A stretch of 64,000 nt of DNA from Candidatus Binatia bacterium (GCA_022824205.1 JAJEAI010000041.1:856-64855), one strand, 5' to 3'; positions 3,296-58,554 are shown, counted from the first letter of the stretch. Made by a program: numbers and translations. Notes: a model not told the origin generated them from the letters alone.

Positions 3296-3323
3296 CGTCA
3301 TTCCCGCGAAAGCGGGAATGACG
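3296..3323. repeat. REP-like perfect palindrome cgtcattcccgc-gaaa-gcgggaatgacg (12-bp stem, GAAA loop); single-unit copy of the window's dispersed repeat family
   Basis: Perfect inverted repeat seen directly. Same core as the copies at 8648, 56265 and 58387. It lies in the 150-nt gap between the AlkB-fusion stop and the YcaO start. Confidence 0.8.
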
Positions 3324-8556: not shown

Positions 8557-8647
8557 ACGGTGACGCCCATGCCCCTGGTGTCGCGTCGTGTCCAATGAAT
8601 TCAATCAGTTACAGACGTCCGTCTTCGTCACTCCCGGCCCTCCGATC

Positions 8648-8915
8648 CGTCATTCCCGCGAAAGCGGGAATCCAGGTGGGGTGGGGCGGGGAAACGCCGC
8701 TGCGGCGCCCCGCCACCACCCCTGGATTCCCGCTTTCGCGGGAATGACGGATTCGCGTTTAGTCGCCAGGAAGCAGCGTATTGACACAGCCTGTTCCGCG
8801 GGAATGTCGTTCTGTTACCTAGTTGCGTGTTACGTAGTTGCGCTGTGAATCTGACACAGCCTGTTTCGTGGGAATGGCATGATTTATACTCGGTCGCATC
8901 GAGGTGGGAATGACG
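8648..8915. repeat. REP/MITE-like repeat cluster: ~100-bp nested inverted repeat (8648-8749) plus 'tgacacagcc...ccgcgggaatg' modules (8781-8808, 8850-8881, 8903-8915)
   Basis: cgtcattcccgcgaaagcgggaatccagg ... cctggattcccgctttcgcgggaatgacg enclose a GC-rich inner hairpin (ggggtggggcgggg / ccccgccaccacccc). Track ORFs 8588..8848 and 8628..9044 are just translations of these repeats (SRESGNPGG, IPAKAG peptides). Confidence 0.8.
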
Positions 8916-8931: not shown

Positions 8932-9705
8932 GTGAAGGTCGTCACATGGAATCTGAACTCCATTCGGGCGCGGGAGGAGCGTTTGCTGAGCTGGCTGTCG
9001 CGCCACGACCCCGACGTCGTGTGCCTGCAGGAGACCAAGGTCACCGATGAACAGTTTCCCCACGAGGTCTTGAAGGACCAGGGTTATCACGCGGCCGTGC
9101 ACGGCCAGCGGACCTACAACGGGGTGGCGATCCTGTCGCGGGAGCCCATCGAGGACGTGCGCATCGGCTTCGACGACGGCGCGGACGATCCCCAGGCGCG
9201 GTGCATCTGCGGCGTGGTCCGCGGCATCCGGTTCATCTCGGTGTATGTCCCCAACGGCTCCACGGTGGAGTCGGACAAGTACGTCTACAAGCGCGAATGG
9301 CTGGAGCGGCTGATGCCGTACCTGGACAAGACCCACGTCCCGGGGACGCCACTGCTGATTTCCGGCGACTTCAACATCGCGCCCGACGTGGCGGACGTAG
9401 CCGAGCCGGACGCGTGGCGCGACACCGTGCTGTTCAACCCCGACATGACCGGCGTGATGACGCGGCTCTCGGACTGGGGGCTCCAGGACGTGGTGCGGCG
9501 GCACAATCCCGACCCGGGGCTCTACTCGTGGTGGGACTACCGCCAGCTTGCGTTCCCGCGCAACCAGGGGCTGCGCATCGACCACATCCTGGCCACGCCG
9601 GACCTCGCGGCGCGGTCGACCTCGGCCGGCGTGGACCGGGACGAACGCAAGGGCTCGAAACCGTCGGATCATGCGCCGGTGTTGGCGGAGCTGGACTGGC
9701 CGTAG
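8932..9705 (+). CDS. xth: Exodeoxyribonuclease III (AP endonuclease)
   Basis: MKVVTWNLNSIRAR, DVVCLQETK and the C-terminal SDHAPV motif. GTG start preceded by AGGAGGA. Confidence 0.9.
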   Translation: MKVVTWNLNSIRAREERLLSWLSRHDPDVVCLQETKVTDEQFPHEVLKDQGYHAAVHGQRTYNGVAILSREPIEDVRIGFDDGADDPQARCICGVVRGIRFISVYVPNGSTVESDKYVYKREWLERLMPYLDKTHVPGTPLLISGDFNIAPDVADVAEPDAWRDTVLFNPDMTGVMTRLSDWGLQDVVRRHNPDPGLYSWWDYRQLAFPRNQGLRIDHILATPDLAARSTSAGVDRDERKGSKPSDHAPVLAELDWP

Positions 9706-9785
9706 GTTCCCTCCCCGCGGGGTATGTCTATCGGGGGAAGCGGATGTGTTGAGAACGGAATGGACGGGCAGGGCCGGGATGCTGT

Positions 9786-9813
9786 AGGGGCGACCTCCCG
9801 GTCGCCCCTACGA
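9786..9813. repeat. Perfect hairpin gtaggggcgacc-tccc-ggtcgcccctac (second palindromic repeat family), downstream of xth
   Basis: 12-bp perfect inverted repeat. A near-identical element (taggggcgacc-cgc-ggtcgcccc) occurs at 44993-45018 downstream of glnA. A second hairpin, ggcgtccttcg...cgaaggacgcc, lies at ~9860-9898. Confidence 0.7.
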
Positions 9814-9932
9814 CGTTTGCAGCACCGGGGAAGCTCCGATCAATAGCCGCTCGGTACCGTGGCGTCCTTCGGCGTCGCGAAGCCGGGTCGAAGGACGCCG
9901 GCACGGCTGATCGGAGTCTCCTTGGTGTCCGG

Positions 9933-10445
9933 CTACTTCTTCCGCGGCACCGCCGCCCACGCCTCGATCTCGATGAGCATGTCCTGCAGGTCGATGCCGA
10001 CGCCGCGCAGCAGCGTGGCGGGACGGGGATGGGCGCGCAGATCGGGCTCGTGCTCCTCGAAGAACGCGTACATCTCGTCACGCATGTCGAATACGTCCTC
10101 GCGCCGCGTGAGGAAGTAGCGGATCATGACGATGTTCTTGAGCTCGCCGCCCATCATCTCCAGGTTGTCCTTGATGTCCTGCCAGGCCTGACGGGTCTGC
10201 TCCTTGATTCCGCCGACGACCTTGCCGCGACCGGCCCGCTCCTCGTTGGGCTCGCGGCAGGGTGCGTCCTCGAACGGATCGCGTCCGGTGGAGCCGGAGA
10301 GGAACAGGATGTCCACGTCGCCGCGGGTGCGGAACCCGGTGGCCCAGTTCATCCTCTCCTTGTGGTAGTGCGGCCACAGCGTGCCCCAATCGTACTCGGT
10401 CTTCTCCGCTTCCTGACGTTTCACCGCCTCTTGGTTGGTTGCCAT
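9933..10445 (-). CDS. RidA/YjgF-family (endoribonuclease L-PSP-like) protein
   Basis: C-terminal PATLLRGVGIDLQDMLIEIEAWA is typical of the YjgF/RidA fold. AGGAGG RBS before the ATG. Confidence 0.7.
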   Translation of the reverse strand: MATNQEAVKRQEAEKTEYDWGTLWPHYHKERMNWATGFRTRGDVDILFLSGSTGRDPFEDAPCREPNEERAGRGKVVGGIKEQTRQAWQDIKDNLEMMGGELKNIVMIRYFLTRREDVFDMRDEMYAFFEEHEPDLRAHPRPATLLRGVGIDLQDMLIEIEAWAAVPRKK

Positions 10446-10560
10446 GGTGATTCACCTCCTTGTGGTTTGGGTTGGTTGCTGTTGATTGTGCGGCCCGCGG
10501 AACACGAGCGCCGCCTCGACGCCCCTGTTCAACGAGCGGCCCGGCGCCGAGCCATGCGCC

Positions 10561-11166
10561 CTACCCCAGGCCGACGAACGGTATGGTAATGCCCTCGGTG
10601 CGCTCGATGTAGCGGATGAACCGGTACTTGTACTCCGCCAGGTCGACGTTGGGGCGCGGGATCTCGCGGTGGATGAGGCTCTCCTCGACCTTGCACACGA
10701 CGTAGTGGAGTCCCTCCCCGGTCACGCCCGGCAGGCCGTGCTCCTTGAACCCCTCGATGTCGTGCACCGTGACGGCGTTGTCGATGCCCGAGGCCCGGGC
10801 GATGGCTTCCAGGTCGGCCTTGCCGGCCGTCGCCGTGGGCTCGCTCATGGTGCTGCCGCTGTACACCTCGTTGTCGAACACGAACACCGTCAGGTTGGAC
10901 AGATCGAGGTTGCCCAGAGTCGGGAGATTGAACAGAGACAGCAGCACGCTACCGTCGGACTCCAGCACGATGACCCGCCGATGCGGCAGCGCCAGCGCCA
11001 GTCCCATGCCCACGCCCGTGGCGCACCCCATCATGCCCACCAGCAGGTTGCCCTCGTGCTGCGCCGCCAAGTGGAACCACTCGATGCGCTGGCCGCTCTG
11101 GGAAGACAGCACCAGTTGATCGGTCATCAACGGCGCCATGAGCTCCAGGCATTCACGCCGGATCAT
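10561..11166 (-). CDS. TPP-dependent decarboxylase beta subunit (sulfopyruvate/phosphonopyruvate decarboxylase ComE-like, TPP-binding)
   Basis: GMGLALALP...VLESDGSVLLSL...NLTVFVFDNEVYSGST, a TPP-binding (GDG-like) region. Overlaps the alpha subunit by 4 nt. Confidence 0.7.
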   Translation of the reverse strand: MIRRECLELMAPLMTDQLVLSSQSGQRIEWFHLAAQHEGNLLVGMMGCATGVGMGLALALPHRRVIVLESDGSVLLSLFNLPTLGNLDLSNLTVFVFDNEVYSGSTMSEPTATAGKADLEAIARASGIDNAVTVHDIEGFKEHGLPGVTGEGLHYVVCKVEESLIHREIPRPNVDLAEYKYRFIRYIERTEGITIPFVGLG

Positions 11167-11669
11167 CGGGCGAACTCCCCCGAGAAGATCAAGGCGGCGG
11201 GCTGGCGCATGGAGTCGCTGACCCGTTGGGCGTCCCGGATGTGCCGTTCCAGGTTCTCCGCGTTCTCGACCACGCGGTACTCGATGCCCAGGCCCTCCAG
11301 CGTGGGGATCATGCGCATGCCGATGGTCACGTACAGGAAGCTGTTGCGCTGGTCGGCGAAACTGCCCAGGAAGCCGATGAGCAGCAGGATCGGCACGCCC
11401 ATCTGCTTGCCCACGGTGAGCAGCGAGTAGGCGGACACGTAGGGGCCGGTGCTCTCCATGTAGCAGGCCACCCGCTTGCCCCCGAGGGCCGCGCCCGCCG
11501 CGATGGTGATGGCCTCCTGCTCACTGGCGGTGCCCACGAGCTGCACCGTGCCGTCCTCGCGCAGCAGCGGCAGGATCTGGCTCAGCCGGCTCTCCGGCAG
11601 GTAGGTCATGAAGTCGATGCCTGCCGCCTTGAGGCCGTGGACGATCTTCTCGGCGAGTACCGGTTCCAT
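11163..11669 (-). CDS. TPP-dependent decarboxylase alpha subunit (ComD-like, pyrimidine-binding domain)
   Basis: MEPVLAEKIVHGLKAAGIDFMTYLPES...GTASEQEAITIAAGAALGGKRV. Split alpha/beta arrangement with ATGA overlap. Confidence 0.7.
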   Translation of the reverse strand: MEPVLAEKIVHGLKAAGIDFMTYLPESRLSQILPLLREDGTVQLVGTASEQEAITIAAGAALGGKRVACYMESTGPYVSAYSLLTVGKQMGVPILLLIGFLGSFADQRNSFLYVTIGMRMIPTLEGLGIEYRVVENAENLERHIRDAQRVSDSMRQPAALIFSGEFAR

Positions 11670-11710
11670 GGGTTCGCGTTCGTTCTCGATGTCCGTTCGT
11701 TCCGGAGGCG

Positions 11711-12985
11711 TCAGCGCGTCCAGTTGCAGATGGTGGCGGCCGACAGCGCGTAGATCTGCGACGCGCGCACGATCTCATCGACGTCGATCTGCTCGGACCG
11801 CGTGGTGAAGCGGCCTCCGCCGAGGCCGAACTTGCACGCCGGAATGCCCATCTCGTTGTAGATGTTGGTGTCGGTCCAGATGCTGGAACGAAACGTGTTG
11901 ACCGGCGTGGTCTTCTTGCCGAACAGTTCCTGGTGCGTGTTCTCGATGACATCCACCACCGGCTCGATGCCCTTGGCCTCGTAGCCCATCTTCGACGTGT
12001 ACATCTCGATGTCGTACTCGTAGCCGGTGGCGTCCATGACCGCGCGCAACTGCCGCTGCACCTCCATGGGCCGAAGCTCCGGCGGAATGCGCACGTCCAC
12101 GTAGAGCGAGCAGATGCCCGGGTGGTAGTTGGGCCGGTAAGGGGCGCCTCCCTGGACGGCGCCGAGATTGACCTTGGGGATGATCGGGCCGTTGGCCGAC
12201 TGGTACACGTGCGTGGCCTCGAACTCCTCGGCCCAGGCATCCACCGCCTGCGCCACCCTGGCCATCTTGAGCACCGCGTTGTGCTCTTCGGGCGGCTCCT
12301 GCTGCCGCGTGACCCCCCAGGCGGCGTGCGGATTGCCGAAGGTGTCGATCTTGAACTGGGCCACGCCGGCCTGGGTCCACACGATGCACAGAGCCGAGCG
12401 GTCCGCCACGATGGCGTAGTCGGACTGCACGCCGTAGGTCAGCAGGTGACGCGTGCCGGTGCCTTCGCCGCGGTAGAGGCCGGACTGGTACGGCCCGATG
12501 GGGGTGCGCGAGATCTCGCCCGCCACCGCCGCGAGGATCAGGTCGCCCTTTATGGCGACGCCGCTCTTCTTGAGCGCTTTGCCCGCCACCATGAACGCCG
12601 CCAGACCCGACTTCATGTTGGACGCGGCAAGGCCGAACACCTTGCCGTCACGGATGGCGCCGCGCAACTCGCTCTGTGGCTCGAGCTCGCGGCACAGCAT
12701 GAGGTCGTCCTCCTGCCCGGTGAAGCTCGTGTCCATATGGCCGTTGATCATCAGCGACACGCCGCCCCCGGTGCCCTGGAGCACGCCCACGGCGTTCACG
12801 CGGTTGGGGTCGATCTCCTGGCGGACCGGCTTGAGACCGTTGGCCCGGTACCAGTCGAGGATGAACTCACCGATCTCCTTCTCCGAGCCGGTGGGGCTCA
12901 GGATGTCCACGAGGTCGCGTGTGAGCTCGGCCAACTCCTGGCCGTCGATATGCTGGAGGATGCGTTCCTTGGTATCGTTGTCCAT
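11711..12985 (-). CDS. M20-family metallopeptidase / deacylase (ArgE/DapE/CPG2-like)
   Basis: MDNDTKERILQHIDGQELAELTRDLVDILSPTGSEKEI...GHMDT...; start re-derived to ATG at 12985. The track ORF 11711..13255 is over-extended upstream. Confidence 0.8.
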   Translation of the reverse strand: MDNDTKERILQHIDGQELAELTRDLVDILSPTGSEKEIGEFILDWYRANGLKPVRQEIDPNRVNAVGVLQGTGGGVSLMINGHMDTSFTGQEDDLMLCRELEPQSELRGAIRDGKVFGLAASNMKSGLAAFMVAGKALKKSGVAIKGDLILAAVAGEISRTPIGPYQSGLYRGEGTGTRHLLTYGVQSDYAIVADRSALCIVWTQAGVAQFKIDTFGNPHAAWGVTRQQEPPEEHNAVLKMARVAQAVDAWAEEFEATHVYQSANGPIIPKVNLGAVQGGAPYRPNYHPGICSLYVDVRIPPELRPMEVQRQLRAVMDATGYEYDIEMYTSKMGYEAKGIEPVVDVIENTHQELFGKKTTPVNTFRSSIWTDTNIYNEMGIPACKFGLGGGRFTTRSEQIDVDEIVRASQIYALSAATICNWTR

Positions 12986-13050
12986 GGTGTCGAGGTGGGG
13001 TCGGGGATGTTCGATGCGTGTGATCGATGCGTTGGATGCTTCGATACGGG

Positions 13051-13227
13051 TCAGCTCTTGCGCTGCTTGTCGATCTTCATGATGGGCATCACCCCGGTGA
13101 CGTCGACCTTGTAGAGGTCCTGGAGCAGCCGGTGGGTCTCCTCCGCCTGCCTGGCGATGGATTCGATCTCGTCCTCGGTGAGGTTGAAACCGTATTCCTT
13201 GTCGATCTCGCGAATCCGTTCCTTCAC
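13051..13227 (-). CDS. Unannotated 58-aa ORF with a GatC-like (Glu-tRNA(Gln) amidotransferase C-subunit-like) motif
   Basis: A GTG start 6 nt after a perfect GGAGGA gives MKERIREIDKEYGFNLTEDEIESIARQAEETHRLLQDLYKVDVTGVMPIMKIDKQRKS. The L-T-E-D/E-E...L...V-D-V-T-G-V-x-P pattern resembles GatC. It is missed by the track because it is under 60 aa. Confidence 0.45.
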   Translation of the reverse strand: MKERIREIDKEYGFNLTEDEIESIARQAEETHRLLQDLYKVDVTGVMPIMKIDKQRKS

Positions 13228-13393
13228 GGCCGTTCCTCCGGTTGGCGGACAACATCAGCGAAATTGCGATGGAATCGCACTCCTCGGGCTCGTAACACGC
13301 CCACCTGAGTGTGTCAACGCGGCCCCTGTCGGACCCACGTCCCCGAGCCCGCGTTGCACTCGCGGCCGTCCGCCAACGCCGGAATACGTGGGG

Positions 13394-14491
13394 TTACAGA
13401 CCCAGCAACTCCTCGGCGTTCCCGCCCAGGATCTTGACCTTCTGGGCGTCGGTGATGTCGCTTCGTTCCTCGATGCCCGAGACCGTGTGCGGGTACTCCG
13501 AATCGAAGTGCGGATAGTCCGTGGCCATGAAGATGCGGTCCTCTCCGAGTTCCTTGATGGGCGTCGCCAGGTCGCGCTCGTCCGCCTCGCAGGTCACGTA
13601 GCAGTTGCGCTTGATGTACTCCGACGGCGCCATGCTCAAGTGGCCGGTGAGCTGGGAGAAGTCCTTGGCCCACTCGTAGTCGTCGTCCATCCGGTGCATC
13701 CAGAAGAGGATCCACTCCGCGCTGCACTCGAAGAACACCACCTTGAGCCGCGGGAACTTCTCGAACACGCCGCCCAGCACCAGCGCGATGAGCGCGGCCG
13801 TGCAGTTCATCACCCGCCCCAGGACGTGGGTCTTGTAGAAGTTGTCGAACCGGTCCGTGAGGTCGCCGTTGCTGTTGGGATGGCAGAAGAGCGGCACGCC
13901 CAAGTCCTGGACCGTCTCGTAGTAGGGATAGAAGATCGGATCGTCCACGTTCCTCGAACCCACGTACGGCACCAGATGGGTGGCCTTGAAGCCCAGCTCC
14001 CCGACACAGCGCGTCACTTCGTCCGGCATCGCTTCCGGGCAGCCGGCCGGGGCCATGGCGCAAGGCAGGAACGTCTCCTCGTAGCCCTTGACCAGGTTCG
14101 CCACCCAGTCGTTGAAGGCCCGCGCCACCACCGCGCCCAGGCGGCCCTGGTTCTGCGTGGCGATGCTGATGCCGGTGGGGAAGATGATCTCCTTGTCGAT
14201 GCGCTCGGCCCGGATATCCTCTGCCCGCCGCGCCATGTCGTAGCCGCCCACCTGCCGCTCGGCGATCTCGCCCGCGCGCCAGTTCACCTTGGGGTCGTAG
14301 ATGTAGGGGTGCTTGTGGGTCGCGAGCCCCTGGGGATTGAGCGGCTCCAGGGAATGGATGAAGCGGGTCCCGTGACTTCGGCCCGCGTCGTTGGCCTTCC
14401 TGGGAGTGAACTGGGCGAACGGTTCGTCCAGCTTGTACACCTCGTCCATGAAATAGCCTTCGCGCAAATGCGAATCGAGATCGATGATCAT
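13394..14491 (-). CDS. Amidohydrolase-2 family metal-dependent hydrolase/decarboxylase (PF04909-like)
   Basis: MIIDLDSHLREGYF...HKHPYIYDP...ATDYPHFD, the metal-dependent TIM-barrel amidohydrolase pattern. GGAGGG RBS. Confidence 0.75.
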   Translation of the reverse strand: MIIDLDSHLREGYFMDEVYKLDEPFAQFTPRKANDAGRSHGTRFIHSLEPLNPQGLATHKHPYIYDPKVNWRAGEIAERQVGGYDMARRAEDIRAERIDKEIIFPTGISIATQNQGRLGAVVARAFNDWVANLVKGYEETFLPCAMAPAGCPEAMPDEVTRCVGELGFKATHLVPYVGSRNVDDPIFYPYYETVQDLGVPLFCHPNSNGDLTDRFDNFYKTHVLGRVMNCTAALIALVLGGVFEKFPRLKVVFFECSAEWILFWMHRMDDDYEWAKDFSQLTGHLSMAPSEYIKRNCYVTCEADERDLATPIKELGEDRIFMATDYPHFDSEYPHTVSGIEERSDITDAQKVKILGGNAEELLGL

Positions 14492-14541
14492 GGGCTGTCC
14501 CTCCGTTTGAGCAATATCAGAGAAGGGAGACTAACACCCGG

Positions 14542-16401
14542 TCAGGGACCCGGCAATCTCGCCTTCTTCTTTTCGAGCGTGTCCAACTCTGCCATCAATC
14601 GCCGCTTGGCCTTGTGTCGCACTCGCATCGCCGCGATGTAGCGGCGGAAATCGTCGCTTCGGCCCAGGCCTTGCATGAGCTTCTCCATCTTCGAGAGATA
14701 GGGCATCGCCTCACGATAGGCACTGGGCTGGACTCGGGCGATCAGACTCTCGGCCTTGCCTCGCCACACGTCGATGCTGACGTCGGGATGCGTCTTCGCC
14801 ACGGCCTGGGCGATGCGGTCGGCATGCTGGTCCTTGTGAGGAGCCTCCCGAAACCACCGCAAGGCATCCTCCGTCCGTTTCTCGTGAAGCGCAATCGTTA
14901 TCAGGCTATCGTGGTCAGGCGTGTCGCGCCGGAATCGTCGTGCGGGGAATGGAAGTCCTGTATCCGGCAACGGCCAACCGGCCGCGGACGAAGGGGCGGA
15001 GCCGGTCTCCAGGTAGCGCAACAACCCGGACCTCACCTGCGGCCAGCAGCCTTTCTTGCGGGCTGTCTGTTCGACCCGGCGATAGTTGTCCACCGTGCTC
15101 CGTTCGAGAAATCCCTCCACTCGCAACGCCGCTGCCAGCAACCAGTCCCGCCGTCGCCGGGCGATGTCAAGCAACTGCTCCACCAACTTCCAGGCGATGC
15201 CGGGTGAATGCTCCAGGGTCAGCCTGAAGCCCTGGTAGATCCAGTGCACGGCCTGGTCGTAGTCTTTGCTCGCCGACAGGGCATCAACCAGATCGACATA
15301 GTTGTCGCAATAGGGCAGCTCGGCAATCATCAGCTCGATCGCTCGATGCTCCTCGCCGGCCTCGCCCAACGCCCGTTGCGTGTACTTCAATAGCTGCTCC
15401 CGACGGTACCGTTCCGACGACCAGCGGCCACGGCCATCGGGCTTGGGGCTGGCCGCCAGCCGGTTGCCGAACGCTTCGGCGACCTCGCGCCAGTCGGCGG
15501 GTTTCATCTGGACCTCGTTCACCGGCGGCGTCAGCCCGTCCAGCAAGCAGTACGAGTCGTTCAGGAGCTTGTCCCAATACCAGATCATGCGCTCCGCGGC
15601 CGGGCGTTTGGTCTGCCTCATCGCCTCCAGCACCACGGCCAGGCAATCGCTGATCTCGCCGGCGGTTTCCCCTTCGTCGTCCGATTCCTCGACCTGGGTG
15701 GTGCCGAGTTTGAACAATTCCTCTCCCAGCTTCAGCACCGCCTCGTGATGCCCGTCGTTCAGCAGCTTCTTGAGTTGCTCTCGAATCGGAGAGTAGGCCG
15801 GCGTATGGCCTTCGTGGCGCCAATAATCCTGCCAGCCTCTCTCGCTGGCCGTCTTGCGAATCTGCCGGCGCAGCCGCGCCACGGCCCAATCCGGAGCCTC
15901 ATCGGTGAGCGGCCCCGCCAGGGGCAACGTATCGAAAAGCGACGGATCGAACGCGAACCGATCCATGGCCCATTCAACGAGCTGCGCCTTTGTCAGAGCG
16001 TCAAGCGCGGCGCGCGCCTCATCGGGATCGACAGCTCGTTCCGTGCCCAAATCTCCCGCCAAGCCATATGTCGAGAGCCGGTCGCTCAACTCGTCACCGT
16101 CGATCCGTGGAACGGATGTCCCCGCCGCGACGCAATCGAGATAAGCCAGAATGACGGCAACGGCGTGCTTGCAAGGCCCGTCGTAGGGACAACTGCACTC
16201 GTGATCCGGCTCGCCGTGGGTCATCCAGACTCGCGTGGCGTAGTTTTCGCTTCCGACAACCTCGGCAACCAGGTGCCCTTCCTCGGTCACCGCGAGATCA
16301 TGCACACGTCGCCGATAGCCCTTGCCGCGCTTGAAAATGGTGGCTCCAGCCCATTGCTCCAGGTCTTCCGTACCGAGTGATGTATAAGGCGTCGTCGGCA
16401 T
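14542..16401 (-). CDS. SWIM zinc-finger domain protein (large, 619 aa)
   Basis: CSCPYDGPCKHAVAVILAY is a canonical SWIM CxCx(n)CxH motif. Start re-derived to MPTTPYTSLGTEDLEQW (ATG 16401). Confidence 0.7.
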   Translation of the reverse strand: MPTTPYTSLGTEDLEQWAGATIFKRGKGYRRRVHDLAVTEEGHLVAEVVGSENYATRVWMTHGEPDHECSCPYDGPCKHAVAVILAYLDCVAAGTSVPRIDGDELSDRLSTYGLAGDLGTERAVDPDEARAALDALTKAQLVEWAMDRFAFDPSLFDTLPLAGPLTDEAPDWAVARLRRQIRKTASERGWQDYWRHEGHTPAYSPIREQLKKLLNDGHHEAVLKLGEELFKLGTTQVEESDDEGETAGEISDCLAVVLEAMRQTKRPAAERMIWYWDKLLNDSYCLLDGLTPPVNEVQMKPADWREVAEAFGNRLAASPKPDGRGRWSSERYRREQLLKYTQRALGEAGEEHRAIELMIAELPYCDNYVDLVDALSASKDYDQAVHWIYQGFRLTLEHSPGIAWKLVEQLLDIARRRRDWLLAAALRVEGFLERSTVDNYRRVEQTARKKGCWPQVRSGLLRYLETGSAPSSAAGWPLPDTGLPFPARRFRRDTPDHDSLITIALHEKRTEDALRWFREAPHKDQHADRIAQAVAKTHPDVSIDVWRGKAESLIARVQPSAYREAMPYLSKMEKLMQGLGRSDDFRRYIAAMRVRHKAKRRLMAELDTLEKKKARLPGP

Positions 16402-16589
16402 GGTAGTCACTTCTCCCCCTGTACCGCATATCGATACCCCGCCAACGTCCATCAAGCCAAGACCCCGCCGTTTCGCCCGTTGGCGCAACCGGCGCTCTCC
16501 CCTCTCCTGTCGGAGGAGTACGCCGACGAGGAAGGTAGCCCTCAACACATTTGCCATTCCCCAACCCGTGGCATAAGGTCTGGCCGTTC

Positions 16590-16715
16590 AATGCGCTCCA
16601 TGATCACTTGGATCAAACGCAAGCCTACGTCCGGAACGCCTTCACGAGCTTACCAATCCTGGATCTCCTCCAGGTCGGCCAAGGCGGAGTTGGTCAGCCG
16701 GATCTCGGCAGGCAC
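16590..16715 (-). pseudogene. Decayed ParE/RelE-like toxin remnant downstream of the Phd/YefM antitoxin
   Basis: Immediately after the antitoxin stop, the minus strand encodes V-PAEIRLTNSALADLEEIQDW and then a TAA stop after ~20 codons. This is a typical toxin N-terminus with no intact downstream frame. Confidence 0.4.
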
Positions 16716-16717
16716 GA

Positions 16718-16981
16718 CTATTCGAGACCGAGTCGGTGCTTGGCTTCGGCCAGCGACACTTCGCGTCCCTCCTCCAGATCCGACAGCCCCTCAATCACCG
16801 CCCGCATGAAGGCGCGCTCATCGTCGGCCGCTTCGAATTCCTCGACGGATTGGACGACCGCCACGCCACGACCCCTACTCGTCACCAAAACCGGACGCCG
16901 CGTTTCCGTTGCGTGTTTCACAACGCGACCGGGGTTCGTCTTGAGGTCGGTCAGCGGAACGATGTCCTCAGAAAATTTCAT
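16718..16981 (-). CDS. Phd/YefM-family type II antitoxin (orphan)
   Basis: MKFSEDIVPLTDLKTNPGRVVKHATETRRPVLVTSRGRGVAVVQSVEEFE matches the Phd/YefM fold. Confidence 0.8.
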   Translation of the reverse strand: MKFSEDIVPLTDLKTNPGRVVKHATETRRPVLVTSRGRGVAVVQSVEEFEAADDERAFMRAVIEGLSDLEEGREVSLAEAKHRLGLE

Positions 16982-17011
16982 TTGATTTTTCTCCTATAGG
17001 ACCTGTTTAGT

Positions 17012-27786: not shown

Positions 27787-28530
27787 CTATTGCGCCTGCC
27801 AGGTCCGGCAGCCTTCGGTCGGGTCCGGTTCGTGCCGCGGCGCCAGCCGCGCGGCGATGGCCTCGCGGACGCGCTCCATCTGCCCGCGTGAACGGTCGTC
27901 CTGGGACCCGGCGGCCATCGCTTCGCCGATGTGGACCTCCACCTGGCCCGACCGGAGGCGCCAATCGCCCCGCGGCATCAGGACGCCCGACCCGCTCACG
28001 GTGATGGGGACAATCGGCACGCCCGCCTTCTCGGCCAGGCGGAAGCCGCCGCGCTTGAAGGGCAGCAGCCGGCCGTCCGTGCTGCGGGTGCCCTCGGGAA
28101 ACACCACCAAGGAGATTCCCCGCCCGAGCTTGTCACGCGCGCTGTCCATCGCCGCCACCATGTCCTTGGAACGGGTGCGCTTGACCAGCACGTGCTTGGA
28201 CGCCCACAGGGCCCAACCGAAGAACGGCACGCGCAGCAACTCGCGCTTCGCCATCCAGCGCAACTGGATCGGTGCCAGCGCCTGCACCAGCACCGGAATG
28301 TCGATGTTGCTCTGGTGGTTGGCCATGAAGACGTAAGCGCGCGCCGGGTCCAGATCCCCGCTCCGGCGCACCCGCACCGCCACGCCGCCGGTCTTGAGAA
28401 TGCACCAGGACCAGAAACGGAAGAACGGATAGACGCGCCTGCCGTAGGGGTCGGCGAGTCCGATGACAATGATGGGAATGCTCTCCAGAAGGCTTATGCA
28501 GAGGATCAGGGCCAGCTTGAGCGTGTACAT
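27787..28530 (-). CDS. plsC: 1-acyl-sn-glycerol-3-phosphate acyltransferase
   Basis: NHQSNIDIPV (HxxxxD acyltransferase motif) and VFPEGTRS motif. Confidence 0.8.
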   Translation of the reverse strand: MYTLKLALILCISLLESIPIIVIGLADPYGRRVYPFFRFWSWCILKTGGVAVRVRRSGDLDPARAYVFMANHQSNIDIPVLVQALAPIQLRWMAKRELLRVPFFGWALWASKHVLVKRTRSKDMVAAMDSARDKLGRGISLVVFPEGTRSTDGRLLPFKRGGFRLAEKAGVPIVPITVSGSGVLMPRGDWRLRSGQVEVHIGEAMAAGSQDDRSRGQMERVREAIAARLAPRHEPDPTEGCRTWQAQ

Positions 28531-56135: not shown

Positions 56136-56388
56136 GTCATTCCCACGAAACCGGCTGTGTCAAAACACTATCTGAGAGAGGCAACAACCCACCGAAACGT
56201 CATTGATATGAAAATAAATCTTGTTCAATGATTTTTGGTAGTTATGGAATCCCGCTACACCCCACCGAGTCATTCCCGCGGAAGCGGGAATCCAGGCGGG
56301 GTGGGGCCGGGCAATGAGGTCGCCACACCCCCACCCCTGGATTCCCGCCCCCGATCGGGGTCGGGGGCAAGCTTCCGCGGGAATGACG
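56136..56388. repeat. REP/MITE-like repeat cluster with a 45-bp AT-rich insert
   Basis: gtcattcccacgaaaccggctgtgtcaa (56136-56163); the AT-rich segment cattgatatgaaaataaatcttgttcaatgatttttggtagttatgg (56199-56245); and the nested IR gtcattcccgcggaagcgggaatccagg...cctggattcccgcc...ccgcgggaatgacg (56270-56388). Confidence 0.8.
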
Positions 56389-58330: not shown

Positions 58331-58554
58331 CGTCATTCCCGCTTTCCAGGCTGTGTCAATACTCATGTGGCACGGATCCCTCGAATCGTCATTCCCGCGG
58401 AAGCGGGAATCCAGGCGGGGTGAGGCGGGGGAATACGCCGTTTTGCCCCTCTCCGCCCCTGGATTCCCGCTTCCGCGGGAATGACGATTCGGGGTGTTGG
58501 TGCCAGTTCTTGTCCACGTGACGTTTGACACAGCCCCTTCCGCGGGAATGACGT
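58331..58554. repeat. REP/MITE-like repeat cluster between tal and tkt
   Basis: cgtcattcccgctttccaggctgtgtcaa (58331-58359), the nested ~100-bp IR (58387-58486), and gtttgacacagccccttccgcgggaatgacg (58524-58554). Confidence 0.8.

What the first reader, a model, noticed from the sequence alone, without database searches (positions are those of the whole stretch)
9933..14491. Minus-strand catabolic operon of unknown pathway with an unannotated GatC-like mini-ORF
Co-directional and tightly spaced: an amidohydrolase-2 family enzyme, a 58-aa ORF (13051-13227; GTG start 6 nt after a perfect GGAGGA; GatC-like L-T-E-D-E-I-E...V-D-V-T-G-V-M-P motif), an M20 deacylase, split TPP-decarboxylase alpha/beta subunits (ComDE-like, ATGA overlap), and a RidA-like protein. 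The mix of deacylase, TPP decarboxylase and RidA (enamine/imine quenching) suggests catabolism of an N-acylated or sulfonated amino-acid-like compound. The mini-ORF was invisible to the ORF track because it is under 60 aa.
Basis: partly seen in the sequence, partly recalled or inferred. Interest (0 to 1): 0.5.

Follow-up and report, generated by a model that had tools for sequence, protein, structure and literature searches.

The report
Orphaned GatC-like mini-gene heading an operon
The 58-codon gene is real, conserved and GatC-like, but it is the small partner of an amidase gene that this bacterial lineage lacks at this locus, and it now heads a five-gene operon of unknown substrate whose main hydrolase resembles an aromatic-amine hydrolase rather than a deacylase.

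Summary
The sequence observation holds: all six minus-strand genes, the GTG start 6 nt after GGAGGA, the peptide motif and the ATGA overlap are as described. The 58-aa ORF is a real gene. It is intact in all 34 syntenic loci, with dN/dS of about 0.13 against 1.2-1.5 in the shifted frames. It is GatC-like by Pfam, by predicted fold and by gene context.

It is not unannotated: public records already list it as a hypothetical protein.

Relatives at 44-68% identity sit next to a GatA/AtzE-like amidase gene, overlapping its start by 4 nt in the five loci with gene calls. That amidase often lies beside the same M20 gene. This Binatia clade has no amidase at the locus, and three outgroup loci show amidase deletions. 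The mini-gene is therefore an orphaned small subunit kept under selection. Its present partner is unknown.

The M20 is a full-length homologue of 5-nitroanthranilate aminohydrolase (304 bits) and lacks two canonical M20 metal ligands, so it is not an ArgE/DapE deacylase. The Amidohydro_2 gene is an ACMSD-type decarboxylase homologue and only a facultative neighbour; a conserved promoter-like element separates it from the operon.

The substrate is unknown, and the sulfonate/N-acyl idea has no support. This is a new variant of a known kind, of moderate interest.

The parts
13289..13317 (-). Conserved promoter-like element: TTGACA (13317-13312), a 17-nt spacer, TG (13297-13296), then TACGAG (13294-13289). 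It lies about 60-90 nt upstream of the mini-ORF start.
   Evidence: In the alignment of 32 distinct upstream regions from the clade, TTGA and GCGTGTTAC are at least 90% conserved whatever gene lies upstream. The default promoter scan did not report it because the -10 hexamer is weak.
13234..13239 (-). Shine-Dalgarno sequence GGAGGA, 6 nt before the GTG start.
   Evidence: Read directly from the sequence. GGAGG is conserved in all 34 loci.
13051..13227 (-). 58-aa GatC-like mini-protein gene, the first gene of the operon.
   Evidence: It has 36 homologues of 58-59 aa. It is intact in 34 of 34 clade loci. Omega is 0.125-0.16, against 1.24 and 1.55 in the shifted frames. Pfam GatC is hit by 18 of 20 family members, best E 4.9e-6. 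The AF2 model is two helices plus a tail, and its top two Foldseek PDB hits are GatC chains.
12986..13050 (-). 65-nt spacer between the mini-ORF and the M20 gene. It has no Shine-Dalgarno sequence before the M20 ATG, and its length is variable (10-240 nt) across the clade.
   Evidence: No amidase remnant is detectable in the spacer.
11711..12985 (-). M20-family hydrolase of the 5-nitroanthranilate aminohydrolase (NaaA) type, 424 aa.
   Evidence: PDB 5K8M: 304 bits, E 1.4e-89, residues 8-423 aligned to 9-424. The bridging Asp is replaced by Asn123 and the second Glu of the EE motif by Ile158, both shared with NaaA. The ArgE/DapE subfamily model scores 136 bits against a cut-off of 217.6.
11163..11669 (-). 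Split TPP enzyme, alpha (PYR-domain) subunit, 168 aa.
   Evidence: PF02776. TIGR03845 scores 75 bits against a cut-off of 148.
10561..11166 (-). Split TPP enzyme, beta (PP-domain) subunit, 201 aa. It overlaps the alpha gene by ATGA.
   Evidence: PF02775. TIGR03846 scores 92 bits against a cut-off of 221.5. The overlap is read. The nearest solved structure is RhiF, 9IZ3_B, E 2.7e-7.
9933..10445 (-). Rid/YjgF-family protein, 170 aa, with an N-terminal extension. It is the last gene of the operon.
   Evidence: PF01042, 44 bits. TIGR00004 scores 25.6 bits against a cut-off of 106. It has an 8-residue insertion at the position of the RidA catalytic Arg. Omega is 0.08.
13394..14491 (-). Amidohydro_2 (ACMSD/LigW-type decarboxylase-like) gene. 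It is a facultative upstream neighbour, probably a separate transcription unit.
   Evidence: PF04909. The nearest solved structures are 5-carboxyvanillate, ACMS and gamma-resorcylate decarboxylases. It is present next to the operon in only about 12 of 34 loci.

Best explanation
The 58-aa ORF encodes a truncated GatC-like, non-catalytic small subunit. In related bacteria this kind of protein is translationally coupled to a GatA/AtzE-like amidase-signature enzyme, much like the AtzG-AtzE pair.

In the sponge/marine 'Candidatus Binatia' clade that the window belongs to, no amidase gene is present at the locus. It was either deleted in place or displaced by recombination. The small gene survived and is still under purifying selection. 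It is now the first gene of a five-gene operon with its own promoter-like element: mini-protein, NaaA-type M20 hydrolase, split ComDE/RhiEF-like TPP enzyme (alpha and beta) and a Rid/YjgF-family protein. The Amidohydro_2 gene upstream is a facultative neighbour.

Shown: the gene is real and constrained; it is homologous to GatC; it is coupled to an amidase in relatives; the amidase is absent here; the gene set is conserved.

Inferred:
1. The mini-protein still acts as a stabilising subunit. Its most likely partner is an unlinked GatA-like amidase, because the residues invariant in amidase-coupled relatives are all retained. Less likely, it works with the adjacent M20.
2. The enzymes carry out hydrolytic C-N cleavage (M20), enamine/imine deamination (Rid protein) and 2-oxo-acid decarboxylation (TPP enzyme). 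The probable substrate is an amino- or amido-substituted aromatic or heterocyclic carboxylate, not an N-acyl or sulfonated amino acid.
For: The gene is real.
- It is intact with a GTG/ATG start and a GGAGG Shine-Dalgarno sequence in 34 of 34 loci.
- Median omega is 0.125-0.16, similar to the M20 (0.13), against 1.24 and 1.55 in the shifted frames. Variable sites by codon position are 24, 14 and 43.

It is GatC-like.
- Pfam GatC is hit by 18 of 20 members.
- The top two Foldseek hits in the PDB are GatC chains.
- One relative is named a GatC subunit by JGI.

It is coupled to an amidase in relatives.
- There is a 4-nt overlap with a PF01425 gene in L001, L008, L011, L086 and L088.
- That amidase is closest to GatA (308 bits) and AtzE (225 bits) in the PDB.

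The pair is linked to the same M20 family in the outgroup.
- mini-amidase-M20 order: L046, L047, L066, L076.
- M20-mini-amidase order: L054, L057, L058, L060, L073.

Amidase loss is recurrent.
- L040 keeps a 32-aa amidase remnant.
- L045 and L059 have deletions that also cut the mini-gene.

There is no amidase in the 64-kb window or in any clade locus.

Constraint is retained.
- 8 of 8 near-invariant positions of amidase-linked minis keep the same residue in the clade.
- Site entropies correlate (rho 0.53).

The operon core is present in all clade loci, and the TPP and Rid genes are absent from all outgroup loci. A promoter-like element is conserved upstream.

M20 identity.

Aromatic/heterocycle context.
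- Outgroup M20 genes lie beside hydantoinase A/B plus TctC, or beside UbiD decarboxylases.
- A 40%-identical split TPP pair in Rhizobium sits in a cluster with Rieske, molybdopterin-hydroxylase and amidohydrolase genes.
- The Amidohydro_2 relatives are aromatic-acid decarboxylases.
Against: - No partner has been identified. None of the 120 best homologues (61% identity or more) of the cognate amidase lies on a clade chromosome. If a trans partner exists, it is a distant paralogue.
- Elsewhere the pair is strictly coupled in cis, which makes trans service unusual.
- The closest relatives of the clade's mini-protein (66-68% identity, L008-L010) are mini-amidase pairs with no M20 nearby, and no amidase remnant is left in the clade. 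In-place deletion is therefore not proven.
- The retained-interface test is weak, because the clade is much less diverged than the comparison set.
- The pathway chemistry rests only on family membership and neighbourhoods. Every equivalog cut-off is missed. The RidA catalytic arginine cannot be placed. No ring-cleavage enzyme or transporter is in the operon.
Confidence: 0.6

Rival explanations
1. Co-option. After the amidase was lost, or already in an ancestral amidase-M20 complex, the GatC-like peptide became a subunit or folding helper of a non-amidase partner encoded in the same operon. The partner would be the NaaA-type M20 or the split TPP enzyme.
For: - The mini-ORF stop lies only 10-25 nt from the M20 start in most clade loci.
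- The M20 has no Shine-Dalgarno sequence of its own.
- The mini-gene and the M20 are linked in both gene orders in the outgroup.
- No close amidase orthologue is seen on clade chromosomes.
- Where the amidase was lost in other lineages the mini-gene was also damaged (L045, L059), yet in this clade it has stayed under selection across about 25 species-level genomes.
Against: - About half of the outgroup M20 genes have no mini-gene or amidase nearby, so the M20 does not need the mini-protein.
- The mini-protein lacks the C-terminal part that in GatC contacts the second partner, GatB.
- The conserved residues are the same as in amidase-bound relatives.
Confidence: 0.2
2. This is a six-gene operon, including the amidohydrolase-2 gene, for catabolism of an N-acylated or sulfonated amino-acid-like compound. 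The M20 would be the deacylase, the TPP pair a ComDE-like sulfopyruvate-type decarboxylase, and the Rid protein would quench the enamine.
For: - The family assignments are correct at the Pfam level.
- ComD and ComE are the best-scoring NCBIfam models for the TPP pair.
- The Amidohydro_2 gene is adjacent in about a third of the clade.
Against: - The ComD/ComE models score at about half their cut-offs, and the ArgE/DapE models are below theirs.
- The M20 is NaaA-type and lacks two canonical metal ligands.
- The Amidohydro_2 gene is variably present, is separated from the operon by a SWIM gene in three loci, and lies upstream of a conserved promoter-like element.
- No sulfonate-related gene is present.
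Confidence: 0.1
3. The mini-ORF is a decaying relic, or only a leader ORF kept for translational coupling to the M20 gene, and its peptide has no function.
For: - Its usual partner gene is absent.
- The M20 has no Shine-Dalgarno sequence.
- The mini-gene evolves faster than its neighbours at the protein level, at 65-97% identity against 88-98% for the M20.
- Omega between the two sub-clades rises to 0.35.
Against: - It is intact in 34 of 34 loci at a median dS of about 0.43.
- In-frame omega is 0.125, against more than 1.2 out of frame.
- There is a third-position excess of variable sites.
- The start codon and Shine-Dalgarno sequence are conserved.
Confidence: 0.05
4. It is the organism's housekeeping GatC subunit of the tRNA-dependent amidotransferase GatCAB.
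For: It has weak GatC profile hits and GatC is the best fold match.
Against: - TIGR00135 scores 14.9 bits against a cut-off of 47.1.
- It is 58 aa rather than about 95, and covers only profile positions 1-36 of 66.
- There is no gatA or gatB nearby.
- The amidases coupled to its relatives fall below the GatA equivalog cut-off, at 375-393 bits against 481.
- The family is small, with only 38 clusters among 1.84 billion representatives.
Confidence: 0.03

Closest known systems
AtzG-AtzE (1-carboxybiuret hydrolase heterotetramer of Pseudomonas sp. ADP; PMC6219798, PMC5961051)
   Same: The mini-protein family is small (58-59 aa) and GatC-derived. It is encoded immediately upstream of a GatA-derived amidase-signature gene, with no gatB, in loci for nitrogen-compound catabolism. 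AtzG is non-catalytic and AtzE is insoluble without it (PMC6219798), which gives a model for what the mini-protein does.
   Different: - A profile of the mini family finds no AtzG chain in the PDB at E up to 10.
- The partner amidases are below the AtzE-family cut-offs.
- No AtzH-like gene was seen.
- Above all, the window has no amidase gene at all next to the mini-gene.
GatC of the GatCAB tRNA-dependent amidotransferase
   Same: Pfam GatC is the most frequently hit family (18 of 20 members), with the best E-value. The predicted two-helix fold matches GatC chains 2F2A_C and 3H0L_C best in the PDB.
   Different: It covers only the N-terminal half of GatC, is below all curated cut-offs, and has no gatA or gatB nearby.
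NaaA, 5-nitroanthranilate aminohydrolase of Bradyrhizobium sp. JS329 (PDB 5K8M-5K8P; function as described in PMC10306065 and PMC11903332)
   Same: The M20 aligns with NaaA over its full length at 304 bits. Both carry Asn in place of the bridging Asp and Ile in place of the second Glu of the canonical M20 metal site.
   Different: The two proteins are clearly diverged (304 bits over the full length; identity was not computed). No 5-nitrosalicylate dioxygenase or lactonase genes accompany it. The family is about 70% conserved across several phyla, which points to a common natural substrate rather than 5-nitroanthranilate.
ComDE sulfopyruvate decarboxylase and RhiEF phosphonopyruvate decarboxylase (split TPP decarboxylases; PMC12141560)
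   Same: There are two overlapping genes for the PYR and PP domains, and these are the best-scoring curated models and the nearest solved structure.
   Different: Scores are about half the equivalog cut-offs. There is no coenzyme M, sulfolactate or PEP-mutase context. The nearest annotated relatives (40% identity) lie in a Rhizobium cluster with Rieske, molybdopterin-hydroxylase and amidohydrolase genes.

Membership tests
GatC (housekeeping subunit of GatCAB) | Passes the curated profile cut-offs (PF02686 gathering score 23 bits; TIGR00135 cut-off 47.1 bits) | tested here: not met
   The window protein scores 17.1 and 14.9 bits. Across the family, 18 of 20 members hit PF02686, best E 4.9e-6.
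GatC (housekeeping subunit of GatCAB) | About 95 aa, including the C-terminal segment that contacts GatB | tested here: not met
   It is 58 aa. It matches only profile positions 1-36 of 66. Foldseek aligns about 52 columns to GatC chains of 91-92 residues.
GatC (housekeeping subunit of GatCAB) | Works with GatA and GatB; the genes are usually linked | tested here: not met
   tblastn finds no amidase in the 64-kb window or in the 34 clade loci.
GatC (housekeeping subunit of GatCAB) | GatC fold | tested here: inconclusive
   The AF2 model has a mean pLDDT of 79.5. The top two PDB hits are GatC chains, with probabilities 0.93 and 0.85 but E-values of 0.15 and 0.25.
AtzG-like small subunit of a GatA-derived amidase | Small GatC-derived protein encoded directly upstream of an amidase-signature gene | tested here: not met
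   This is met in relatives, with a 4-nt overlap in L001, L008, L011, L086 and L088. It is not met in the window or its clade.
AtzG-like small subunit of a GatA-derived amidase | Partner amidase belongs to the AtzE family (TIGR02715 cut-off 425.75; NF006631 cut-off 461) | tested here: not met
   The amidases of relatives score 324-359 bits. They are also below the GatA cut-off (375-393 bits against 481).
AtzG-like small subunit of a GatA-derived amidase | Detectable sequence similarity to AtzG | tested here: not met
   A profile of 20 family members searched against all PDB chains, which include the AtzEG entries 6C62 and 6C6G, gives no AtzG hit at E up to 10.
AtzG-like small subunit of a GatA-derived amidase | Forms an obligate complex and is needed for a soluble amidase | not testable with these tools
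   This needs co-expression or pull-down experiments.
NaaA-type M20 aminohydrolase | Full-length homology to 5-nitroanthranilate aminohydrolase | tested here: met
   304 bits, E 1.4e-89, residues 8-423 aligned to 9-424 of 5K8M.
NaaA-type M20 aminohydrolase | Non-canonical metal site relative to the M20 consensus | tested here: met
   The window has SNMK where DapE has DMK, and GEI where canonical M20 enzymes have EE. The same substitutions are present in NaaA.
NaaA-type M20 aminohydrolase | Hydrolytic deamination of 5-nitroanthranilate, with naaB/naaC pathway genes nearby | tested here: not met
   The operon holds no dioxygenase or lactonase gene. The enzyme activity cannot be tested here.
ArgE/DapE deacylase | Passes a subfamily or equivalog cut-off and keeps the canonical di-metal ligands | tested here: not met
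   TIGR01910 scores 136 bits against 217.6, and all other models are far below their cut-offs. Two ligands are replaced.
ComDE sulfopyruvate decarboxylase | Passes the TIGR03845 and TIGR03846 cut-offs | tested here: not met
   75.1 bits against 147.95, and 92.1 bits against 221.5.
ComDE sulfopyruvate decarboxylase | Split alpha and beta genes, adjacent or overlapping | tested here: met
   The ATGA overlap lies at 11163-11166.
RidA (enamine/imine deaminase) | Passes TIGR00004 and has the catalytic arginine | tested here: inconclusive
   The Pfam superfamily PF01042 is met (44 bits). TIGR00004 scores 25.6 bits against 106.25. An 8-residue insertion containing two Arg residues sits at the catalytic site, so the Arg cannot be assigned.
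ACMSD-type Amidohydro_2 decarboxylases | PF04909 domain, with the nearest characterised relatives being non-oxidative decarboxylases | tested here: met
   PF04909 scores 110.9 bits. The nearest structures are LigW (84 bits), ACMSD (79 bits) and gamma-resorcylate decarboxylase (75 bits). The activity cannot be tested here.

The most novel reading that the evidence does not exclude
A GatC-fold mini-protein that lost its amidase partner has been re-used as a subunit or assembly factor of a non-amidase enzyme in the same operon, either the NaaA-type M20 hydrolase or the split TPP decarboxylase. This would be the first GatC-derived small subunit working outside the amidase-signature family. It would also be a dated example of a 'vestigial' subunit changing partners.
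Probability: 0.2. Interest if true: 0.65.

Novelty: new variant of a known kind. Interest (0 to 1): 0.45.

Why it matters
GatC-derived mini-subunits are so far known from the tRNA amidotransferase GatCAB and from AtzEG. This locus adds two things.

1. There is a third, widespread lineage of GatCA-derived amidases. It is neither GatA nor AtzE by the curated cut-offs, it has its own 58-aa subunit, and it is often linked to a NaaA-type M20 hydrolase.
2. It provides a natural experiment. The catalytic partner gene is gone, yet the small subunit has stayed under purifying selection across about 25 species-level genomes.

This makes a concrete question testable: what does an obligate 'helper' subunit do once its enzyme is lost?

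It also corrects likely mis-annotations. The M20 is named an acetylornithine deacetylase/DapE-like protein in public records, and the Amidohydro_2 protein looks like a decarboxylase. The correction points to aromatic or heterocyclic nitrogen-compound metabolism in uncultured, probably sponge-associated, Binatia. The practical impact is modest until the substrate and the partner are found.

Tried and rejected
- A profile of the mini family against PDB sequences gave only marginal hits (PheRS beta E 0.016, GatC E 0.24) and no AtzG hit. It therefore could not settle homology by itself.
No complex test was possible.
- The default promoter/terminator scan found nothing in the operon. The promoter-like element emerged only from the comparative alignment.
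- An Rfam scan of 9000-17000 found no riboswitch or leader.
- A search for a trans amidase used the last protein search. None of the 120 best hits lies on a clade chromosome, but weaker paralogues cannot be seen this way, so the result is inconclusive.
- No amidase remnant was found in the mini-M20 spacer of the clade.
- Longer proteins containing the mini domain (P0157, P0162, P0171, P0187) look like over-extended gene calls or chimeras, not informative fusions.
- The NaaA structure paper (PMC5110390) is not held. Active-site comparison therefore rests on alignments to canonical M20 enzymes.
- Housekeeping GatC and a decaying relic were both considered and rejected (see the rival explanations).

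Full report
**1. Observation**

The minus strand of 9933-14491 carries six co-directional genes exactly as described:

| Gene | Coordinates | Note |
|---|---|---|
| Amidohydro_2 | 13394-14491 | PF04909 |
| 58-aa ORF | 13051-13227 | GTG start; GGAGGA at 13239-13234, 6 nt upstream |
| M20 | 11711-12985 | 424 aa; ATG at 12985 |
| TPP_enzyme_N | 11163-11669 | alpha subunit |
| TPP_enzyme_C | 10561-11166 | beta subunit; ATGA overlap with alpha |
| Ribonuc_L-PSP protein | 9933-10445 | last gene |

The 514-aa ORF that seems to run over the mini-ORF is a GC-rich read-through. Alignment to the closest solved structure starts at residue 8 of the 424-aa version.

On its own the window peptide hits Pfam GatC only weakly, at 17.1 bits against a gathering score of 23.

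**2. The mini-ORF is a real gene, and it is already in public records**

- A word-indexed search found 36 homologues of 58-59 aa, at 57-97% identity.
- An exhaustive HMMER search of 1.84 billion representatives found only 38 clusters, so the family is small.
- The exact window sequence is in the public collection. Cluster mates are NCBI 'hypothetical protein' MCY4486622.1 and MDE0341684.1.

A scan of one genome per species with an M20 alignment returned 68 loci. Together with contigs fetched through the mini-protein, this gives 34 loci that share the window's gene order.
- In all 34 the mini-ORF is intact (58 aa; 55 aa in one), with a GTG start (ATG once) and a GGAGG Shine-Dalgarno sequence.
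- Nei-Gojobori median omega is 0.125-0.16. The M20 is 0.13, TPP alpha 0.08, TPP beta 0.13 and the Rid protein 0.08.
- The same DNA read in the two shifted frames gives 1.24 and 1.55.
- Variable sites by codon position are 24, 14 and 43.

This is purifying selection on the protein.

**3. It is GatC-like**

- Eighteen of 20 family members hit PF02686, best E 4.9e-6.
- The AlphaFold model (pLDDT 79.5) is two helices (residues 2-12 and 18-39) plus a disordered tail.
- Its two best matches among 350,542 PDB chains are GatC chains of GatCAB, with probabilities 0.93 and 0.85, although the E-values are not significant for so small a protein.
- The match covers only the N-terminal half of GatC. The equivalog model TIGR00135 is far from met.

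**4. What it normally does**

In relatives at 44-68% identity the mini-gene lies directly upstream of a 479-493-aa amidase-signature gene. In L001, L008, L011, L086 and L088 the two overlap by 4 nt.

That amidase is closest to GatA (308 bits) and to AtzE (225 bits) among solved structures. It is below the NCBIfam cut-offs of both: 375-393 bits against 481 for GatA, and 324-359 bits against 426-461 for AtzE.

This is the architecture described for AtzG-AtzE. AtzG is a GatC-derived, non-catalytic subunit without which the GatA-derived amidase AtzE is insoluble (PMC6219798). The Binatia pairs form a third lineage of that kind.

**5. Why the window is different**

M20 homologues of 63-75% identity from other Binatia and 'Deltaproteobacteria' MAGs sit next to the pair.
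- Order mini-amidase-M20: L046, L047, L066, L076.
- Order M20-mini-amidase: L054, L057, L058, L060, L073.

The window clade has mini-M20 with no amidase. This holds for the 64-kb window and for every clade locus.

Amidase loss recurs in the outgroup:
- L040 retains an intact mini-gene followed by a 32-aa remnant, made of the amidase N-terminal 11 residues fused to its last 21 residues, just before the M20.
- L045 has a deletion from mini residue 25 to the amidase C-terminus.
- L059 has a mini-gene truncated at residue 43 and no amidase.

The clade's spacer (10-240 nt; 65 nt in the window) shows no amidase remnant. Its mini-protein is most similar (66-68%) to mini-amidase pairs that have no M20 nearby. 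In-place deletion and recombination therefore cannot be told apart.

**6. Who is the partner now? Unresolved.**

For an unlinked GatA-like amidase:
- All eight positions that are near-invariant in amidase-linked minis keep the same residue in the clade.
- Per-site entropies correlate (rho 0.53, p 2e-5).
- One outgroup locus has a single mini-gene between two amidase genes, which hints at promiscuity.

Against:
- None of the 120 best homologues (61% identity or more) of the cognate amidase lies on a clade chromosome.

For co-option by the M20:
- The spacing is tight, and the M20 has no Shine-Dalgarno sequence.

Against:
- Half of the outgroup M20 genes have neither a mini-gene nor an amidase nearby.

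**7. The operon and its enzymes**

The core unit is mini, M20, TPP alpha, TPP beta and Rid. It is present in all 34 loci, followed by a convergent xth gene. The TPP and Rid genes occur in no outgroup locus.

The Amidohydro_2 gene is directly upstream in about 12 loci. A SWIM-domain gene separates it from the mini-ORF in three loci, and it is absent in at least 14.

A conserved element lies upstream of the mini-ORF whatever the upstream gene is: TTGACA, 17 nt, TG-T-TACGAG. In the window it spans 13317-13289. The operon therefore very probably has its own promoter.

- **M20.** It is a full-length homologue of 5-nitroanthranilate aminohydrolase (304 bits). That enzyme removes an aromatic amino group hydrolytically (PMC10306065, PMC11903332). 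Like NaaA, the window protein has Asn in place of the bridging Asp and Ile in place of the second Glu of the M20 metal site. It misses every ArgE/DapE cut-off.
- **TPP pair.** It is ComDE/RhiEF-like but scores at half the cut-offs (PMC12141560).
- **Rid protein.** It passes Pfam but not the RidA model. It has an 8-residue insertion at the catalytic arginine position.
- **Amidohydro_2.** Its nearest solved relatives are all non-oxidative aromatic-acid decarboxylases.

Context elsewhere:
- Outgroup M20 genes lie beside hydantoinase A/B plus TctC binding proteins, or beside UbiD-family decarboxylases.
- A 40%-identical split TPP pair in Rhizobium tumorigenes lies in a cluster with Rieske, GMC-oxidoreductase, amidohydrolase, molybdopterin-hydroxylase and aldehyde-dehydrogenase genes.

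I infer a short module: hydrolytic C-N cleavage, then enamine/imine deamination, then 2-oxo-acid decarboxylation. It would act on an amino- or amido-substituted aromatic or heterocyclic carboxylate. This is inference from families and neighbourhoods only. Nothing supports a sulfonated or N-acyl amino-acid substrate.

**8. Verdict**

- The finding is a new variant of a known kind: a GatC/AtzG-type mini-subunit, orphaned yet retained.
- Interest is moderate (0.45).
- The most novel reading still open is that the mini-protein has changed partners to a non-amidase enzyme (probability about 0.2).

Noticed in passing
window 8645-8752; also 3299-3320, 56271-56292, 58390-58483: The REP-like palindrome CATTCCCGCGAAAGCGGGAATC occurs six times in the window, against 0 expected. 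Two pairs form long inverted repeats. The one at 8645-8752 has 45-nt arms and lies between the ABC ATPase gene and xth.
   Followed up: partly
window 14542-16557 (-); L027, L028, L075, L015, L025: The 671-aa SWIM zinc-finger gene sits at different places upstream of the operon in different genomes. In three loci it lies between the Amidohydro_2 gene and the mini-ORF. Short 3' remnants of the Amidohydro_2 gene occur in L028 and L029. The region just upstream of the operon promoter is therefore a rearrangement hot spot.
   Followed up: partly
window 12986-13050 (-) and the same spacer in L015-L043: The spacer between the mini-ORF and the M20 gene varies from 10 to 240 nt across the clade. The M20 ATG has no recognisable Shine-Dalgarno sequence in any of the six clade loci inspected. 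The 65-nt version, which contains a short direct repeat (ATCGAAGCATCC / ATCGAACATCC), was seen only in the window and L018 among those six loci.
   Followed up: partly
L076/L086 1590-4696: One outgroup locus has a single mini-gene flanked by two amidase-signature genes (amidase, mini, amidase, M20). One small subunit may therefore serve two paralogous amidases.
   Followed up: no
L044-L074 (outgroup loci): M20 homologues fall into two neighbourhood types. One has a convergent TctC, hydantoinase B, hydantoinase A block. The other has a UbiD-family decarboxylase nearby.
   Followed up: partly
window 28202-28297 (-): ARAGORN calls a tRNA-Ala(tgc) that is 96 nt long, which is unusually long for a bacterial tRNA.
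   Followed up: no
window about 34188 onward (+): A molybdopterin-hydroxylase (xanthine dehydrogenase family) homologue lies about 20 kb from the operon. It is 45% identical to the one next to the outgroup M20 locus L086.
   Followed up: no
window 16718-16981 (-): An 87-aa ORF just upstream of the SWIM gene looks, from its sequence alone, like a Phd/YefM-type antitoxin. This was not tested with any tool.
   Followed up: no
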